Source: an uncultured Planctomycetota bacterium
GTDB taxonomy: Bacteria > Planctomycetota > Phycisphaerae > Sedimentisphaerales > Anaerobacaceae
Length of the DNA stretch: 64,000 nucleotides
Assembly (NCBI GenBank): GCA_963827315.1
Contig: CAWHAL010000004.1
Coordinates: 221,829-285,828 of the forward strand
Direction: 5' to 3'
The position numbers and the translations under genes were made by a program. Shown piece after piece: positions 35,514 to 41,284 of the stretch (the stretch's first letter is position 1; each line of letters begins with the position of its first letter). The notes below the pieces were generated by a model. The model was given only the letters and a program-made list of their open reading frames with translations. It ran no database searches and was not told the DNA's origin.

Positions 35514-36125
35514 CTATTTCAATTTCCAGTCGTCCGGGCAATAATCGAACCAGTGCTCGCCAAAAATACTGAAGTCCTTGAAATCGACATTCTCATCGCT
35601 GTACAAGTCCGCAAACTGCCCAGGACCGCTTTTGAGCCAGTCGTCAACAAAATTGGCCAGGTCATAAAAATTTACCTTGCATGCCTTAACATTGTAGCCA
35701 CACAGACTAACAGACTGGAAATTTATCCATCCGATATTCTCGCCCCAGGCCCAGCCGTCAAAGTTACCATTTGAATCGATGGTCACACCGCCATAGGAAG
35801 GGCTGAAATTTATCCAGCCGACATTTTCACCCCACGCGTAGCCGGAAAGGTTTCCTTGCCCATCGTTGAACACACCGCCGTAGTTTTCAGGCGACAGATT
35901 TATCCAGCCGAGGTTCTCCGCCCAGATAAAACCGGTCAATTTGTCACTGCTTACTGTTGCACCCGCATCTGGCCCTGCTGCATTTGGCTCAAAATTGAGC
36001 CAGCCGACGTTCTCACTATAGGCATATCGCGAACCGTCTTCATAAGGGTCGATGTTTTCGCCAAATACAGAAGCTGCGCTAAACACCCATAGAAAGAAAA
36101 CTACTTGTATTGTTTTACTGAACAT
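35514..36125 (-). CDS. secreted repeat protein (4x [YFW]-A-W-x-E-N-x-G-W-I-N-F units) with dockerin-like C-terminus
   Basis: Signal peptide. Repeats YAYSENVGWLNF, FIWAENLGWINL, YAWGENVGWINF and WAWGENIGWINF spaced 29-32 aa apart. C-terminal VNFYDLANFVDDWL and DENVDFKDFSIFGEHW. Confidence 0.6.
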   Translation of the reverse strand: MFSKTIQVVFFLWVFSAASVFGENIDPYEDGSRYAYSENVGWLNFEPNAAGPDAGATVSSDKLTGFIWAENLGWINLSPENYGGVFNDGQGNLSGYAWGENVGWINFSPSYGGVTIDSNGNFDGWAWGENIGWINFQSVSLCGYNVKACKVNFYDLANFVDDWLKSGPGQFADLYSDENVDFKDFSIFGEHWFDYCPDDWKLK

Positions 36126-36597
36126 TATAAAAATAACCTACTATCATCGCTCTTCTTGTCCCGGCGCTGCCATTTGCAATTCCCAATGAGTCACCTGCAT
36201 TGAGTACAACACATCTGTCCGGAAAATCCATAAAAGTCTTCCCATCCGGCGTACTATATGGCCCCCCTGTTAAGAAAGCACCGTTCTTTGTTAGATACAT
36301 AGCCGCATCGTGAAGAACCATCTTTAATAAGACGAATTGCTTGCCTGTCGGCACTGTAAAAAGTGTTATATTACTGTCTGACACCACTTCATTGTGGTCA
36401 ATAAGACCTTCCCTCTGGGATATACCCGATGAGCCGGCTGTCACAGCATCATATATCTCACTCAGCGTTTTCATAGTAGCCCCCGGAGGGGCGTTTGGCT
36501 CTAAGTTACCTGCCTTTACCAATAGAACGTAACCCAAAAGCCCGACCACCACGAGTAACGCCGCTGCCAAATGTGTGTCTGCTTTTTTCTGTTTCAT
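36115..36597 (-). CDS. hypothetical secreted/anchored protein
   Basis: AAAGGAGAAGG RBS. N-terminal TM/signal LAAALLVVVGLLGYVLL, then GNLEPNAPPGATMKTLSEIYDAV. Overlaps the downstream gene by 11 nt. Confidence 0.55.
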   Translation of the reverse strand: MKQKKADTHLAAALLVVVGLLGYVLLVKAGNLEPNAPPGATMKTLSEIYDAVTAGSSGISQREGLIDHNEVVSDSNITLFTVPTGKQFVLLKMVLHDAAMYLTKNGAFLTGGPYSTPDGKTFMDFPDRCVVLNAGDSLGIANGSAGTRRAMIVGYFYNVQ

Positions 36598-37131
36598 TTC
36601 CTTCTCCTTTAGAAAAAAGTTTTAACGTATTTATAGTGCACCTGTTGCGCACGAGTATCCTTGTAAAACTTATGGGAACTCAAAGAATTGAACGGCCTCT
36701 CTCCTGTTATCTCCATCCTCCTTTATCCCCGGCTGAACCTGTAAGACTGCAAGCGTTATATGTCCTTTTACCGGATAGTCAAGACCAAATTTACAAAAAA
36801 TATTGGCCGGGGTCATTGCGAGCAAACTTGTCCTGAGCGAAGTCGAAGGAGCGCGGCAATCTCGTTTAGCGTCCGCCGGCATGGCAGGTTTTTGTTTAGC
36901 GGTCGTCGGCACGACGACCTTATCTGAGGTTTTTATCTGGGACCCACTCAATTTGGCCAAGAACAGGGGACCCACCTCCCATTTAACCACTCCTCCGGGA
37001 TTGCTTTCCCCCCCAACGCCCGCCGTCTGGGCGTTTGTATTTAGCCCCGGCCTCCGGCCGAGGTTGCAAACGCCTGCCCTGTGGGATGCGCCGTATGCTA
37101 TCCCATCGGGGCGAGGAACGCTTAAATTTAC

Positions 37132-37159
37132 CCCCTCAATTTATTGAGGGGTTTCTTTA
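37132..37159 (+). terminator. terminator-like hairpin inside the 104-bp repeat (copy 1)
   Basis: CCCCTCAA-TTTA-TTGAGGGG followed by TTTCTTTA. No obvious upstream plus-strand gene. Confidence 0.3.
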
Positions 37160-37614
37160 CTGACGCCGGGGTGCAAACGCGAGGTCCGCTTATACCATTT
37201 CCGCGAAACGCGGCGTATTTAGCCTTGGGTTTTACCCTGGGTTGCAAACGTGAGGATTGCTTTCCCCTTCAACGCCCGCCGTTTGGGCGTTTGTATTTAG
37301 CCCCGGCCTCCGGCCGGGGTTGCCTGCGCGAGGTCCGCTTATACCATTTCCGCGAAACGCGGCGTATTTAGCCTTGGGTTTTACCCTGGGTTGCAAACGT
37401 GAGGATTACTTTCCCCTTCAACGCCCGCCGTCCGGGCGTTTGTATTTAGCCCCGGCCTCCGGCCGGGGTTGCCCACGCCTGCCCTGCTTGCCCCGTGAGA
37501 CGTGTCGTGTACTGTCTCACTGGGGTGAGACTTGCCCTGTGAGATGCGCAGTGTGCTATCTCATCAGGGTGCGCCGTATGCTATCCCATCGGGGCGAGGA
37601 ACGCTTAAATTTAC

Positions 37615-37642
37615 CCCCTCAATTTATTGAGGGGTTTCTTTA
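37615..37642 (+). terminator. terminator-like hairpin inside the 104-bp repeat (copy 2)
   Basis: Same sequence as copy 1. Lies about 170 nt upstream of the 693-aa gene. Confidence 0.3.
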
Positions 37643-37808
37643 CTGACGCCGGGGTGCAAACGCGAGGTCCGCTTGATATTCGTTTTCCTTCATATACCGC
37701 CGGTATAGAACGCAGAACGAGATTCCGGTTGCAAATGGACCCGTTTTGGGGATAGAATTCCAATGTGCGGGAATGAAGCACCGCGAAAAATAAATCGGAG
37801 ATTTTATT

Positions 37809-39890
37809 ATGGGCGTATGTGATGCGCATGACGCAGCTTGGGGATGCAAGAAAACGCTCGCAGAAGGTGAAGGTTTTGCGATCGCTGCTAGGTTCATGCA
37901 GGACTCGCCGATTCAGGAGAAACTTGTCGATAAATCCTTGGATGTATACAAGAGACTTGGCATGCCGTTGTCTAGGCAAAACTGTAAGCTTCAAATCGAG
38001 AGTATACAGGGTGCCACACTATGGTTAATCTGTGAGCAGTGCGCAAACCTGTTGAAGCTAAGCAGTGCCGACAAAGAGGCGGCGAGGGAAGCTGCCCGAA
38101 GATGGTGGAAGGACAAGAGTGCACCTGGTCATATGCCTGGACAAAAGACGACAGAAAGGAACAAAAAGCCAGCATATTTCATTATTTATGGAAATGGATT
38201 CACTCCATCAGCGATACAGGCGCATCTTATCCTGCGGTATTGGGTTGAAAAGGTAAAAGGCAAACTTGGCGAAGATATATGGGAACATATCAGGATGGAG
38301 CTGACAAGTAAAGAACACGGATCTAGGATGGTATTCACAGAGGTTTTCACTGAGGAGAAAAAGGTTCATCGGGGTCAGTTGGTAGATGGCCTGTTTCTAC
38401 TAGACTACAAAACAGGACAAGATATGGCACTTATTGCAGTGTGGGCGCCGGAAGATTCAGAGTATGTCGGCTCTTTATTGAAACCAAACCAAGCCGTGAA
38501 GCCGATGGCAATCGCCGAGGCCGAGATCGAGCAGATTCAGAAACAGGTTTGTGAAAAACCAAAAAACATTTACGAGATTCTCATGGACGCGATCTGCTGT
38601 GTCATGTGTGCTGATGGAAATGCGACGCCAAAGGAGCAAGAAGCGATTCATATCATTTTGGGTAAAACCAAAGCTTCTTGGACAAAAGAAGACATAGATA
38701 AGCGAATTGACGGCTTCCTGGAGCGAATCAAGATGGATGGTATGGACAAGATTGTTCAAGCGACCTGTGAGAATCTGCCCGAATTTAAGAGTAAAAAAAG
38801 ACGGGAGGTCTTGACGTTTTGTCTCGAATTTATTGCGCGTGCCGATGGAATAGTTGATGAAAAGGAAAAACAACTTATTGAAAAATTCAAGTCCGCTCTT
38901 GGAGTAGAGTCTGGCGATTCTGCCCCAAAGAGTGGGAGTCAGTCAAGCAAAGAAGAAAGGAAAACGGAAGAAGAAGAGCAAACAACTGTAAATTCCAGCC
39001 CATCAGATGATATCAATGCGAATAAATCTTCTGAACCGATTTTGCCTGATGGTAGTGTAGACGACCGTATCGATGGTTTATGGGACAGTGCTAAAAAGCT
39101 GGGTTGGTCGGAAACAGACTGCGAGAAAGAGATATCGATATATACAGAAATTCTCGGATTGGTTAATAAAAGTTCGAAATATAACGCATGTGCATCATTG
39201 CGCAATAGAGCAATTTCTTATAGGAATTTAAAGAAGTTCGACGAGGCTTTAAATGATCTTCAACATGAGTTGGAAATTGCTCAAAAAATCGGGGACCGAT
39301 ATCGCGTTATGGAATGCCAGAGAGTCATGAAAGAGACCAAACAAATGAAACAGGATGCTGAAATAAAAGCAAGCGGTGGTGAGAAGTCTTTAAAGGTCCA
39401 GTCCATGGAGCAACAGGCAAGTAAACTCTCTGACTCTGGTGCCGAGGGGGATGCAGCCTTTAAGAGTCTTTTCGAGGATTTAGCAAATAGCGATAGCGAT
39501 ATTCGTGCAAAGGCCTCGCAGCTATTGGCACACTCTTCCGAGGCTAGCAGCAAATTAATTAATGTGTATCAGGAGTCCCTTGTCGCAGATCCGCGAAAGA
39601 GTGTCCTTGCAGGGCGAGTGCTTGGTCGAAAACTTGACGGTGGAAGGCAAGACATGATTCCTGAACAAGTGACTATGCTGCTGTTCAGAGTCAAAATTGC
39701 ATTTACCCCGTGCGTTTGTGGACGCTGTGGCGAGCTGAATGTTGGTATCCCTGTACCTGAAAAAGGTTTGTATATTGGATTCTATGGCCAAACCGATGAC
39801 AAACATGGAGCATACGCTCTGCCTGTACTTTGTGATTACTGCGGCAAGGAATTCTTCATAGCGTGGGATAGTGACCCGCGAGGGCAATAA
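37809..39890 (+). CDS. hypothetical multidomain protein: TerB-like domain, acidic/Ser linker, TPR-like helices, C-terminal CxxC...CxxC zinc ribbon
   Basis: 693-aa ORF with GGAG 7 nt upstream of the ATG. ILMDAICCVMCADGNATPKEQEAIHIIL ... FIARADGIVDEKEKQLIEKF looks like a TerB-type fold. NRAISYRNLKKFDEALNDLQHELEIAQKIGD is TPR-like. CVCGRCGE...CDYCGKEF is a zinc ribbon. Confidence 0.6.
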   Translation: MGVCDAHDAAWGCKKTLAEGEGFAIAARFMQDSPIQEKLVDKSLDVYKRLGMPLSRQNCKLQIESIQGATLWLICEQCANLLKLSSADKEAAREAARRWWKDKSAPGHMPGQKTTERNKKPAYFIIYGNGFTPSAIQAHLILRYWVEKVKGKLGEDIWEHIRMELTSKEHGSRMVFTEVFTEEKKVHRGQLVDGLFLLDYKTGQDMALIAVWAPEDSEYVGSLLKPNQAVKPMAIAEAEIEQIQKQVCEKPKNIYEILMDAICCVMCADGNATPKEQEAIHIILGKTKASWTKEDIDKRIDGFLERIKMDGMDKIVQATCENLPEFKSKKRREVLTFCLEFIARADGIVDEKEKQLIEKFKSALGVESGDSAPKSGSQSSKEERKTEEEEQTTVNSSPSDDINANKSSEPILPDGSVDDRIDGLWDSAKKLGWSETDCEKEISIYTEILGLVNKSSKYNACASLRNRAISYRNLKKFDEALNDLQHELEIAQKIGDRYRVMECQRVMKETKQMKQDAEIKASGGEKSLKVQSMEQQASKLSDSGAEGDAAFKSLFEDLANSDSDIRAKASQLLAHSSEASSKLINVYQESLVADPRKSVLAGRVLGRKLDGGRQDMIPEQVTMLLFRVKIAFTPCVCGRCGELNVGIPVPEKGLYIGFYGQTDDKHGAYALPVLCDYCGKEFFIAWDSDPRGQ

Positions 39891-40721: not shown

Positions 40722-40756
40722 AGTATATATGCATATACTAATATACTTTCTGACGC
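40722..40756. repeat. 35-bp perfect direct repeat, copy 1
   Basis: AGTATATATGCATATACTAATATACTTTCTGACGC. Contains the 12-bp palindrome TATATGCATATA. Confidence 0.9.
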
Positions 40757-40894: not shown

Positions 40895-40929
40895 AGTATA
40901 TATGCATATACTAATATACTTTCTGACGC
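40895..40929. repeat. 35-bp perfect direct repeat, copy 2
   Basis: Identical to 40722-40756 and 173 bp downstream of it. Confidence 0.9.
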
Positions 40930-41007: not shown

Positions 41008-41042
41008 CCCCGTGAGATGTGTCGTTTACTATCTAACTGGGG
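41008..41042. repeat. dispersed copy of the CCCCGTGAGAY hairpin family
   Basis: CCCCGTGAGAT-GTGTCGTTTACT-ATCTAACTGGGG. Same architecture as 37077-37111, 37491-37525 and 37535-37569. Confidence 0.75.
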
Positions 41043-41085: not shown

Positions 41086-41168
41086 GAACTTGTCCGCCGC
41101 AGGCGGATTTGTTTAGGACTTGTCCGCCGTCCGTCTGGCGGATTTAGAATTTAGAGATTCGGATTTAG
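41086..41168. repeat. two ACTTGTCCGCC...GGCGGA hairpins followed by GATTTAG heptads
   Basis: TCCGCC-GCA-GGCGGA at 41093-41107 and TCCGCC-GTCCGTCT-GGCGGA at 41123-41142, then GATTTAG AATTTAG AGATTCG GATTTAG at 41141-41168. Confidence 0.8.
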
Positions 41169-41179
41169 AGAAAAGAATA

Positions 41180-41198
41180 CCTAAGTATCTTAGGTATC
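41180..41198. repeat. palindrome CCTAAG-TAT-CTTAGG + TATC, copy 1
   Basis: Seen directly. Candidate operator. Confidence 0.8.
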
Positions 41199-41265
41199 AC
41201 TCCTAACAGTTCAGCGACAAGGTGTATGAAAAAGTTAAGATGTATAAACAAGTTGGCTATCAATG

Positions 41266-41284
41266 CCTAAGTATCTTAGGTATC
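41266..41284. repeat. palindrome CCTAAG-TAT-CTTAGG + TATC, copy 2
   Basis: Identical 19-mer, 86 bp downstream of copy 1. Confidence 0.8.

What the first reader, a model, noticed from the sequence alone, without database searches (positions are those of the whole stretch)
37077..37569. Hairpin families with compensatory stem substitutions (structure conserved, sequence drifting)
Family 1 has four full copies:
- CCCTGTGGGAT-gcgccgtatgct-ATCCCATCGGGG (37077-37111)
- CCCCGTGAGAC-gtgtcgtgtact-GTCTCACTGGGG (37491-37525)
- CCCTGTGAGAT-gcgcagtgtgct-ATCTCATCAGGG (37535-37569)
- CCCCGTGAGAT-gtgtcgtttact-ATCTAACTGGGG (41008-41042, 3.5 kb away)

The inner stem changes GGGAT:ATCCC to GAGAT:ATCTC to GAGAC:GTCTC through paired substitutions. 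The 12-nt loop keeps the pattern GYGYMGTNTRCT.

Family 2 changes similarly. AACGCCC-gccgtct-GGGCGTT (three copies near 37013, 37271 and 37420) becomes TCCGCC-gtccgtct-GGCGGA (41123-41142). The loop is similar in both, and both are followed by a T-rich ...TTTAG motif.

Covariation argues that the folded form, either ssDNA or RNA, is under selection. That is expected for REP-type elements recognised by a protein, or for a structured RNA.
Basis: seen in the sequence. Interest (0 to 1): 0.6.

Follow-up and report, generated by a model that had tools for sequence, protein, structure and literature searches.

The report
REP-like hairpin repeats with transposase partners
The hairpins are real and keep their fold through matched base changes, and they belong to a family of small palindromic repeats scattered between genes in this planctomycete lineage, whose genomes also carry the HUH-type transposase-like genes that normally go with such repeats; this is a known kind of bacterial repeat in a new host and a new flavour.

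Summary
All four Family 1 (F1) copies sit at the stated coordinates, and a fifth, 3'-half copy lies at 37570-37594.

F1 is a 35-nt hairpin of 14-15 pairs. It has an invariant bulged T23, a second bulge near position 30 and a conserved G14·T20 wobble, so the "12-nt loop" is mostly stem. On 45 distinct copies from this and related genomes, 8 pairs change on both sides and 93.8% of cells pair (0/500 shuffles). The pair states occur in 21 combinations.

F1 occurs about 30 times in this 2.26-Mb genome and in 27 of 151 genomes of the order.

The 1.2-kb region is a one-orientation mosaic of hairpin modules. Several are REP-like: a CCCC…GGGG palindrome with a conserved 5' TTTAG foot. The genome encodes 7-8 diverged RAYT-like HUH/Y1 genes. 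These genes are flanked by such tagged hairpins, here and in nearly all of 20 loci from relatives. Two have F1 arrays just upstream.

F1 shows no orientation bias relative to genes, which argues against a terminator or RNA role.

Family 2 is real, but the 41122-41142 hairpin belongs to a different family.

Verdict: a REP/BIME-like system, an undescribed variant of a known kind. F1's own dependence on a RAYT is inferred, not shown.

The parts
36812..37676 (+). Whole mosaic of hairpin modules in the divergent intergenic region. It lies between the minus-strand ORF 36115-36597 and the plus-strand TerB/TPR ORF 37809-39890. All modules are in one orientation.
   Evidence: The direct-repeat families D1-D4 include a 149-nt unit repeated twice and a 108-nt unit repeated twice.
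37077..37111 (+). F1 hairpin copy 1 (CCCTGTGGGAT…ATCCCATCGGGG), with 5' foot GCCTG.
   Evidence: 58.1 bits; DNA fold -8.2 kcal/mol.
37491..37525 (+). F1 hairpin copy 2, the GAGAC/GTCTC and GTG/TAC variant.
37535..37569 (+). F1 hairpin copy 3, the GAGAT/ATCTC variant with T4-A32.
37570..37594 (+). F1 3' half copy (inner stem plus 3' arm), joined directly to copy 3.
   Evidence: family D4; model positions 11-35.
41008..41042 (+). F1 hairpin copy 4. It has a G7·A28 mismatch and the 5' foot GTTTA.
37015..37035 (+). Family 2 ('A') hairpin AACGCCC-gccgtct-GGGCGTT, copy 1. Copies 2 and 3 are at 37271-37291 and 37420-37440. Each is always followed by TGTATTTAG plus a CCCC…GGGG hairpin.
   Evidence: (family D1).
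37040..37063 (+). TTTAG-footed REP-like hairpin 'B' (TTTAG-CCCCGGCCtccGGCCGAGG). Further copies are at 37296-37319 and 37445-37468.
   Evidence: C4:259124-259147 and 259273-259296, read on the minus strand as hairpin+CTAAAT. The same hairpin lies next to a RAYT-like gene at C2:22752-22775.
37218..37241 (+). TTTAG-footed REP-like hairpin 'C' (TTTAG-CCTTGGGttttaCCCTGGG). A second copy is at 37367-37390.
   Evidence: Relatives of this hairpin lie directly upstream of the RAYT-like gene C4:485672-486142.
37131..37151 (+). Palindrome 'E' CCCCCTCAATttATTGAGGGG, preceded by AATTTA. A second copy is at 37614-37634.
   Evidence: I1. A tagged copy is at C3:18391-18415.
36894..36919 (+). Second REP-like class: GTTTAGC foot plus GGTCGTCGgcaCGACGACC.
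   Evidence: C4:258723-258747. The same class brackets the 182-aa RAYT-like gene C2:29483-30031 on both sides.
37201..37213 (+). Accessory hairpin 'D' CCGCGaaaCGCGG, followed by CGTATTTAG plus hairpin C. A second copy is at 37350-37362.
   Evidence: part of the 149-nt tandem unit.
41122..41142 (+). GTCCGCC-gtccgtct-GGCGGA hairpin. It is a member of a separate family, and a sister hairpin lies at 41092-41107.
   Evidence: no family-2 hit; 39 GTCCGCC…GGCGGA hairpins in the genome.

Best explanation
The hairpins are modules of a REP/BIME-like system of dispersed extragenic palindromes.

**The basic unit.** In this planctomycete order it is a G+C-rich palindrome, typically CCCC…GGGG, with a conserved foot on its 5' side. 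The foot is (T)TTAG, which reads as hairpin+CTAAA on the other strand. Window modules B, C and E and the GGTCGYCG class are such units.

**F1 and family 2.** These are further hairpins that travel with the basic units in fixed composite blocks: A – TGTATTTAG – B/C – TTGCAWRNGTTTA – F1 – CGAGGAWTGCTT. F1 has the same CCCC/GGGG outer stem and its own conserved 5' foot, GYYTR.

**The inferred partner.** This is inferred, not shown. The elements are bound as folded single-stranded DNA and are cut and rejoined by the RAYT-like HUH/Y1 proteins encoded by 7 diverged paralogues in the genome. That would explain four things:
- the copies disperse to intergenic sites;
- the copies pile up as tandem, partly truncated units;
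- the stems keep pairing through compensatory changes;
- the bulged T's, the G·T wobble and the foot stay fixed.

**Strand.** The G·T pairs all lie on the strand that has the foot 5' of the hairpin, which is the window + strand. That is therefore the strand whose fold is constrained.

**Shown versus inferred.**
- Shown: structure conservation, copy number, taxonomic spread, RAYT-like genes flanked by tagged hairpins, genome-level co-occurrence.
- Inferred: that a RAYT-like protein acts on F1, and which paralogue does so.
For: - **Covariation.** Eight of 15 pairs carry double-sided changes and 93.8% of cells pair (0/500 shuffles). Slid controls pair at 39-52%.
- **Not just subfamilies.** There are 21 pair-state haplotypes, with all four combinations for 8-27 × 13-21, 1-35 × 8-27 and 11-24 × 13-21.
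- **Strand asymmetry.** About 71 G·U cells lie on the + strand against one C·A cell.
- **Copy number and spread.** There are 30 CM hits in the own genome at about 16 loci. The element is found in 27/151 genomes, 7/76 genera and two families of the order, and in 41 loci of about 14 named Planctomycetota MAGs.
- **F1 foot.** The F1 5' flank is GCCTG 31, GTTTA 19 and GCTTG 11 of 75 copies.
- **Tag enrichment.** CTAAA is the commonest 5-mer after hairpins of 7 bp or more. Of 142 CCC…GGG palindromes, 69 carry the tag: CTAAA/CTAAC account for 54 of 284 flanks, and the next 5-mer for 7.
- **RAYT-like genes.** There are 8 PF01797 hits. The proteins have the NHVH motif and a C-terminal Tyr. The best NCBIfam match is REP_Tyr_transpos. 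PDB profile hits are IS200-type TnpA, E. coli TnpA_REP 4er8 and ISDra2 TnpA.
- **Flanking hairpins.** Every own RAYT-like gene, and nearly all of 20 fetched from relatives, is flanked by hairpin+CTAAA(T/C). The stems differ from locus to locus.
- **F1 next to RAYT-like genes.** F1 arrays lie within 0.5 kb upstream of C4:485672-486142 and C4:694764-695237.
- **Co-occurrence across the order.** 56 of 61 REP-rich genomes have a RAYT-like gene, against 30 of 90 others (Fisher 1e-13). 26 of 27 F1-positive genomes are REP-rich and 26 of 27 have a RAYT-like gene.
- **Conserved composite.** The same A–B–F1 composite occurs in another MAG (L031).
- **Orientation.** F1 shows no bias relative to neighbouring genes: 15 co-oriented against 23 opposed.
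Against: - None of 20 RAYT-like loci fetched from relatives has F1 within 2 kb. F1 therefore has no demonstrable cognate RAYT.
- F1's foot (GYYTR) is not the TTAG of the canonical units.
- All units in the mosaics are in direct orientation. They do not alternate as in E. coli BIMEs and are not inverted doublets as in REPINs.
- The RAYT-like proteins score far below NCBI's equivalog cut-off (26-50 against 80 bits) and only at about Pfam's threshold (23-29 against 23 bits).
- The co-occurrence statistics are not corrected for phylogeny.
- G·T wobbles and T-rich tails after some copies fit an RNA reading equally well.
- No biochemical or transcript evidence is available.
Confidence: 0.65

Rival explanations
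1. F1, and family 2, act at the RNA level. They would be intrinsic terminators or RNA-stabilising hairpins, or modules of small RNAs, and covariation would reflect selection on the RNA fold.
For: - The conserved G14·U20 and other G·U pairs lie on one strand only.
- In at least 10 loci of several genomes, and at own C4:696999-697333, F1 closes a conserved non-coding block of about 190 nt and is followed by TCTTTTTTCG.
- The family-2 stem is followed by the T-rich TGTATTT.
Against: - F1 shows no orientation preference relative to flanking genes in 38 loci: the upstream gene is co-oriented in 15 and opposed in 23.
- Only 7 of 75 copies are followed by TCTTT.
- Tandem truncated half-copies are hard to explain by RNA function.
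- There is no Rfam match at gathering or at E≤1.
- The window array lies between divergent genes.
Confidence: 0.15
2. The hairpins are host-factor binding sites or structural DNA elements, for example nucleoid-protein, gyrase or IHF-type sites as described for E. coli BIMEs. They would spread by ordinary recombination and slippage and would be unrelated to the RAYT-like genes.
For: - The bulges and foot are invariant, which suggests protein recognition.
- Arrays grow as tandem composite units of 123-149 nt.
- F1 is not adjacent to RAYT-like genes in relatives.
Against: - Genome-level co-occurrence with RAYT-like genes and tagged hairpins is strong.
- Two own RAYT-like genes carry F1 arrays directly upstream. 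By my own rough estimate, two or more of 7 such genes lying this close by chance has a probability of about 0.003.
- Dispersal to about 16 unrelated loci per genome needs a mobilising mechanism.
Confidence: 0.12
3. The copies are neutral products of recent duplication plus drift, and the apparent covariation is an artefact of a few clonal subfamilies.
For: - Many copies are tandem, and some modules are 95-100% identical.
- The pair counts score sequences, not independent events (caveat stated).
Against: - There are 21 haplotypes of pair states, with four-gamete violations among several pairs, yet almost no unpaired cells: 0/45 at 8-27 and 0/45 at 13-21.
- Two copies replace the whole inner stem by different complementary sequences, ATAG/CTAT and GTCC/GGAC.
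- The element is conserved across two families of the order.
Confidence: 0.05

Closest known systems
E. coli REP/BIME elements and their RAYT (TnpA_REP, PDB 4ER8). Sources: Nunvar 2010 PMC2817692, Messing 2012 PMC3479197.
   Same: - Short imperfect extragenic palindromes with a conserved foot on the 5' side of the hairpin and with bulges or mismatches.
- Clustering in mosaic arrays with other motifs.
- A HUH/Y1 gene flanked by the palindromes (REPtron-like).
- The profile of the local proteins hits 4ER8.
   Different: - The foot is TTAG/TTTAG (GYYTR for F1), not GTAG.
- Units in arrays are all in direct orientation rather than alternating.
- There are 7 diverged RAYT-like paralogues in a 2.26-Mb genome instead of one.
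- The proteins fall well below the NCBIfam RAYT cut-off.
- F1 has a much longer stem (14-15 bp) than typical REPs.
Class 3 TnpA_Y1 proteins of Quentin et al. 2018 (PMC6006769), found mainly in Planctomycetes and Acidobacteria.
   Same: - NHVH HUH motif, W[T/S] motif and a YV… tyrosine motif.
- Extended N-terminal conservation.
- Several related genes per genome.
- Genes flanked by 'atypical secondary structures' that are also dispersed in the genome (one search compared).
   Different: - The published Y motif is YV[VI]xEQ and the foot is CnGA. Here the Y motif is YVNKH (YIQANP in the 182-aa paralogue) and the foot is TTAG.
- Class membership could not be tested, because the class 3 sequences and profile were not available.
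GTAG- and CGTC-tagged REP superfamilies (Di Nocera et al. 2013, PMC3733652).
   Same: - The concept of palindromes sorted by a short terminal tag.
- Many stem families share one tag.
- Several families can occur in one genome.
- The phylum Planctomycetes is listed among the hosts.
   Different: The tag here is neither GTAG nor CGTC. No planctomycete genus that I searched for is named in the main text.
REPINs of Pseudomonas fluorescens (Bertels & Rainey 2011, PMC3116915).
   Same: Non-autonomous hairpin repeats thought to be mobilised by a RAYT, mostly inherited vertically and evolving within the genome.
   Different: REPINs are inverted REP doublets. Here the units are single hairpins in head-to-tail composites, with frequent half-copies.
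Subterminal hairpins of IS200/IS605 elements (for example IS608 and ISDra2).
   Same: Bulged hairpins recognised as ssDNA on one strand by a HUH/Y1 enzyme. PDB hits 2f4f, 2ec2 and 2xm3 support the relationship.
   Different: - The RAYT-like genes are diverged paralogues (45-81% identity), not identical mobile copies.
- Hairpins vastly outnumber the genes.

Membership tests
REP / BIME-type extragenic palindromes | Short imperfect palindrome that folds as a stem-loop, with the fold conserved among copies. | tested here: met
   93.8% of cells paired, 8 covarying pairs, 0/500 shuffles; folds of -4.7 to -10.2 kcal/mol as DNA.
REP / BIME-type extragenic palindromes | Conserved short tag (foot) at one end of the hairpin. 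| tested here: met
   - The CTAAA/CTAAC tag directly abuts 69 of 142 CCC…GGG palindromes.
- F1 has the 5' foot GYYTR in 61 of 75 copies.
- The tag sequence differs from the described GTAG, CGTC and CnGA tags.
REP / BIME-type extragenic palindromes | Many dispersed, mainly intergenic copies. | tested here: met
   - F1 has 27-30 copies at about 16 loci.
- There are about 58-69 tagged CCCC…GGGG hairpins.
- The apparently 'genic' cases are short spurious ORFs across arrays.
- Copy number is lower than the >100 typical of classical REPs.
REP / BIME-type extragenic palindromes | A RAYT gene flanked by the same palindromes (REPtron). | tested here: inconclusive
   - Met for the TTTAG-footed hairpins: own genes and nearly all of 20 loci from relatives.
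- For F1 itself, only 2 of 7 own RAYT-like genes have F1 arrays within 0.5 kb, and none of 20 loci from relatives does.
REP / BIME-type extragenic palindromes | BIME/REPIN arrangement: neighbouring REPs in alternating (inverted) orientation. | tested here: not met
   All modules of the window array, and of C4:486178-486509, are in one orientation. Inverted copies are seen only downstream of some RAYT-like genes.
REP / BIME-type extragenic palindromes | Binding and cleavage by the cognate RAYT. | not testable with these tools
   Needs biochemistry.
RAYT / TnpA_REP (HUH Y1 transposase superfamily) | Y1_Tnp fold with a HUH motif and a catalytic Tyr. | tested here: met
   - PF01797 scores 22.9-29 bits in the hmmscan of four of the proteins (cut-off 23).
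- Five of 8 genomic hits are over the cut-off.
- NHVH and a C-terminal YV/YI motif are present.
- PDB profile hits are 2f4f, 2ec2, 4er8 and 2xm3, with HUH aligned.
- The 182-aa paralogue reads YVH instead of HUH.
RAYT / TnpA_REP (HUH Y1 transposase superfamily) | Reaches NCBIfam REP_Tyr_transpos (NF047646) equivalog cut-off. | tested here: not met
   Scores are 26.5-50.3 bits against a cut-off of 80. It is nevertheless the best-scoring family, ahead of IS200.
RAYT / TnpA_REP (HUH Y1 transposase superfamily) | One gene per REP family rather than many identical copies. | tested here: met
   There are 7 paralogues at 26-81% identity, each with differently sequenced flanking stems. One near-identical, degenerate duplicate lies at a contig end (C6).
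Intrinsic (rho-independent) terminators | G+C-rich hairpin followed by a T-run, downstream of a co-oriented gene. | tested here: not met
   A T-run follows only a minority of copies (TCTTT in 7 of 75). The upstream gene is co-oriented in 15 of 38 loci.
Described structured RNA families (Rfam 15) | Match to a curated covariance model. | tested here: not met
   There is no hit in the region at gathering score, only chance-level hits at E 0.5-0.7, and none in 7 related loci.

The most novel reading that the evidence does not exclude
F1 may not be just another REP. It could be a strand-specific structured element with a role of its own.
- One possibility is that it is the shared 3' hairpin or terminator of a multi-copy, conserved RNA-like block of about 190 nt. 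This block is seen in several genomes and at C4:696999-697333.
- Another is that it is the substrate of an undescribed HUH specificity with a GYYTR foot and two fixed bulges.

In either case it would sit within a system in which 7 diverged RAYT-like paralogues each maintain a private hairpin family, under a common TTAG foot, in a 2.3-Mb genome.
Probability: 0.2. Interest if true: 0.55.

Novelty: new variant of a known kind. Interest (0 to 1): 0.35.

Why it matters
REP/RAYT systems have been studied almost only in Proteobacteria. This case offers three things:

- **A natural comparative data set.** An uncultured Phycisphaerae-type planctomycete order carries a TTAG-footed variant with many stem families and several diverged RAYT-like paralogues per small genome. 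The foot stays constant while the stems vary and co-vary. That makes it useful for asking how HUH enzymes read hairpin shape as opposed to sequence.
- **A practical consequence.** These repeats explain contig breaks and the long 'ORF-free' stretches in MAGs of this lineage. They should be masked before calling small ORFs or regulatory motifs there.
- **A clean test substrate.** F1 has a long stem, two fixed bulges and a fixed G·T pair, so it is well suited to binding and cleavage assays.

The finding does not open a new class of biology.

Tried and rejected
**Alternative identities tested and rejected**
- **Known structured RNA.** Rfam gave nothing at gathering or E≤1.
- **Integron attC or CRISPR.** I considered these from the GTTGCAAAC and TTTAG motifs. 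I dropped them because there are no cassettes, no spacers and no regular period.
- **Terminator function.** The orientation test was negative.

**Tests that were inconclusive or led nowhere**
- **Replication-strand bias.** GC skew in 20-kb bins is noisy and the assembly is in 6 contigs. F1 copies on C4 are + in both skew regimes. Inconclusive.
- **RAYT within 8 kb of F1 in other genomes.** None was found in loci L001-L041, nor in 20 RAYT loci of relatives.
- **Synteny comparison of the window's intergenic region.**
  - The TerB/TPR gene has no homologue in 25 relatives.
  - The left-flank ORF is found only in one genome of another genus.
  - The right-flank gene sits at a contig start in the same-genus genome.
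  - So no empty-site comparison was possible.
- **G·T versus A·C asymmetry in the short TTTAG-footed hairpins.** There are too few mismatches to say (3 against 1).
- **DNA folding energies of the two strands of F1.** They are nearly equal and not decisive.
- **First fuzzy-regex scan.** It missed copies and was replaced by nhmmer/CM searches.
Full report
**Setting**

The window is C4:221829-285828 of a 2.26-Mb, 48% G+C, 6-contig genome. Related public records that share the element are labelled Planctomycetota, Phycisphaerae or Sedimentisphaerales MAGs, and some are labelled 'Pirellulales'.

The finding lies in a 1.2-kb region between a minus-strand ORF (36115-36597) and a plus-strand TerB/TPR ORF (37809-39890). 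This is a divergent intergenic region downstream of dnaG-rpoD.

**The observation**

A fifth, 3'-half copy abuts the third.

A profile search finds about 45 full or partial copies in the genome. A covariance model finds 30. A degenerate pattern that leaves the covarying positions free finds the hairpin in 41 loci of about 14 other MAGs.

On 45 distinct 35-mers the fold is a hairpin of 14-15 pairs. It has an invariant bulged T23, a second bulge at position 30 and a 3-5-nt loop.
- 93.8% of cells pair, against 39-52% when the partner is slid.
- Eight pairs change on both sides.
- The covariation score is 0.272, against 0.165±0.009 in shuffles (0/500).
- Pair 8-27 is AU 25 / GC 20 with no unpaired cell.
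- Pair 13-21 is CG 23 / UA 20 / UG 2.

Two copies replace the entire inner stem with unrelated complementary sequences.

The pair states occur in 21 combinations. All four combinations occur for several pairs of pairs. So this is not just two clonal subfamilies.

G14·T20 is a conserved wobble (42/45). G·T pairs occur only on the + strand: about 71 cells against one C·A.

Family 2 is also real. It has about 10 genomic copies and a C-G/T-A switch at its seventh pair. However, the hairpin at 41122-41142 is not a member (no hit at E≤1). It belongs to a 39-copy GTCCGCC…GGCGGA family.

**What the region is**

The 1.2 kb is a mosaic of short hairpin modules, all in one orientation. It contains duplicated 149-nt and 108-nt blocks. 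Pieces of it recur at dozens of other intergenic sites.

A search for PF01797 (Y1_Tnp) gives 8 hits in the genome.
- They are ORFs of 149-182 aa with an NHVH motif and a C-terminal YV/YI tyrosine motif.
- They are best matched by NCBIfam REP_Tyr_transpos, although far below its cut-off.
- They are related by profile to solved IS200-type TnpA, E. coli TnpA_REP and ISDra2 TnpA.

Read on the gene strand, each of these genes is flanked by G+C-rich hairpins immediately followed by CTAAA(T/C). The same holds for nearly all of 20 RAYT-like loci fetched from other genomes of the order. The stems differ from locus to locus but the tag is constant.

An unbiased count confirms the tag.
- CTAAA is the commonest 5-mer after hairpins of 7 bp or more.
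- 69 of 142 CCC…GGG palindromes carry it directly. CTAAA and CTAAC make up 54 of 284 flanks, and the next 5-mer accounts for 7.

Window modules B, C and E and the GGTCGYCG class are foot-plus-palindrome units, analogous to GTAG-REPs.

F1 shares the CCCC/GGGG outer stem and has its own conserved 5' foot, GYYTR (GCCTG 31, GTTTA 19, GCTTG 11 of 75).

Family 2 and hairpin D always sit just before a TTTAG-footed unit. A relative of family 2 lies between such a unit and the start codon of RAYT-like genes (C1:370377 and L056).

The composite A–B/C–F1 recurs with a period of about 123 nt directly upstream of the RAYT-like gene C4:485672-486142, at C4:570890-570993, and in another MAG (L031).

**Association with the RAYT-like genes**

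Two of the 7 distinct RAYT-like genes have F1 arrays within 0.5 kb. With about 16 F1 loci in 2.26 Mb, I estimate the chance probability of this at about 0.003.

In an even sample of 151 genomes of the order:
- F1 occurs in 27 genomes, in 7 of 76 genera and two families.
- The RAYT-like family occurs in 86.
- The pattern CCCC-N9-24-GGGGCTAAA reaches 8 or more copies in 61 genomes, while the reversed-pattern control gives 0-6.
- 56 of the 61 REP-rich genomes have a RAYT-like gene, against 30 of 90 others (Fisher 1e-13).
- 26 of 27 F1-positive genomes are REP-rich, against 35 of 124 others (2e-11).
- 26 of 27 F1-positive genomes have a RAYT-like gene.

These tests ignore phylogeny.

Against a simple one-to-one link, none of the 20 RAYT-like loci from relatives has F1 nearby, and no RAYT lies within the 8-kb loci around F1 in other genomes.

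**RNA or DNA?**

F1's orientation is unrelated to that of its neighbours. In 38 loci the upstream gene is co-oriented in 15 and opposed in 23. Convergent, divergent and both co-directional settings all occur.

Only a minority of copies are followed by a T-run. Arrays contain orphan 5' arms and 3' halves joined head to tail. No Rfam family matches.

This favours a DNA-level element. The strand-specific G·T pairs then point to the foot-5' strand as the one that folds, as in GTAG-REPs.

The RNA reading is not excluded. In at least 10 loci F1 closes a conserved, multi-copy non-coding block of about 190 nt and is followed by TCTTTTTTCG.

**Comparison with what is known**

This works like REP/BIME elements with their RAYTs (PMC2817692, PMC3479197, PMC3116915). 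Four features differ:
- the foot is TTAG/TTTAG (GYYTR for F1), not GTAG, CGTC or CnGA (PMC3733652, PMC6006769);
- the arrays are strictly head to tail;
- there are seven diverged RAYT-like paralogues in a small genome;
- F1 has an unusually long, doubly bulged stem.

By motifs, the 149-158-aa proteins come closest to the small 'class 3' of Quentin et al. (NHVH, W[T/A], YV…, extended N-terminal conservation, Planctomycetes, several genes per genome, atypical flanking hairpins). Their Y motif (YVNKH) and the foot differ, and I could not test membership.

**Verdict**

This is an undescribed variant of a known kind of repeat, of moderate interest. That a RAYT-like enzyme acts on F1 itself remains an inference.

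Noticed in passing
Own genome C4:696999-697333 (=C6:3882-4218), which is outside the window. Other own copies are at C2:452411-452581, C4:541735-541961, C2:213130-213297, C2:662352-662567, C4:567714-567905, C4:568068-568238 and C1:98392-98573. Also loci L003, L005, L014, L022, L026, L029, L039, L008, L055, L002 and L038.: A conserved, multi-copy non-coding block of about 170-330 nt: TCAATCAAAWGCG… ACCAAAAA… AAAATTTTTTTAYC… CGAAAA-N-TTTTCG… GCGCAAGTTCGCCC-TACTAA-GGGG. In many copies it ends in an F1 hairpin plus TCTTTTTTCG. There is no Rfam match. It could be an sRNA gene that uses F1 as its terminator, or another mobile module.
   Followed up: partly
window 37809-39890: The 693-aa TerB/TPR gene, bracketed by repeat-dense DNA, has no homologue (E≤1e-20) in 25 relatives, including two genomes of the same genus. 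The segment 36.7-41.7 kb looks like a variable island.
   Followed up: partly
window 41177-41197 and 41264-41283; more than 25 further copies genome-wide: Perfect palindrome ATACCTAAG-tat-CTTAGGTAT, usually preceded by AAAGA. It is one of the most abundant dispersed motifs of the genome and often lies at the start of the conserved block noted above.
   Followed up: no
window 40722-40756 and 40895-40929; about 12 further copies: A 35-nt direct repeat AGTATATATGCATATACTAATATACTTTCTGACGC, which contains a palindrome, is dispersed over all large contigs.
   Followed up: no
Own genome, for example C2:662243 downstream; C1:~98700; C4:~542100; also loci L003, L014 and L008: A recurrent motif TCAATCAAAATTGAACGATT-ATGCAAAACAAACCCAATTT follows several copies of the conserved block. 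It opens short ORFs beginning M(Q/R)NK(P/A)NF. It could be a conserved small-ORF start or simply another repeat.
   Followed up: no
Own genome, 39 sites; window 41092-41107 and 41122-41142: A GTCCGCC-N3-10-GGCGGA hairpin family, most copies followed by TAAA(T/A). It is a further tagged palindrome family, distinct from F1, family 2 and the CCCC…GGGG units.
   Followed up: partly
C6:1542-2075 compared with C4:694764-695237: The contig-end duplicate of one RAYT-like gene diverges after about residue 100 into an unrelated reading. This is either a frameshifted or degenerate copy or an assembly artefact at a repeat.
   Followed up: no
C2:29483-30031: The 182-aa RAYT-like paralogue reads D-Y-V-H where the others read N-H-V-H, so the first His of the HUH motif is replaced. 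It has the classical YIxxNP tyrosine motif. It is bracketed on both sides by identical GGTCGCCGtgcCGGCGACC-GCTAAAC hairpins.
   Followed up: no
L041 (JAFFZZ010000095.1, 2.5-kb contig): An F1 array occurs on a short contig binned as 'Candidatus Babeliaceae'. This is probably a mis-binned planctomycete contig rather than cross-phylum spread.
   Followed up: no
window 36812-36869: Module GTCATTGCGAGC…GCGGCAATCTCGTTTAG has 5 copies in the own genome. Similar GTCATTGCGAG… units lie next to F1 in L001 and L007. It is another TTTAG-ending repeat family.
   Followed up: no
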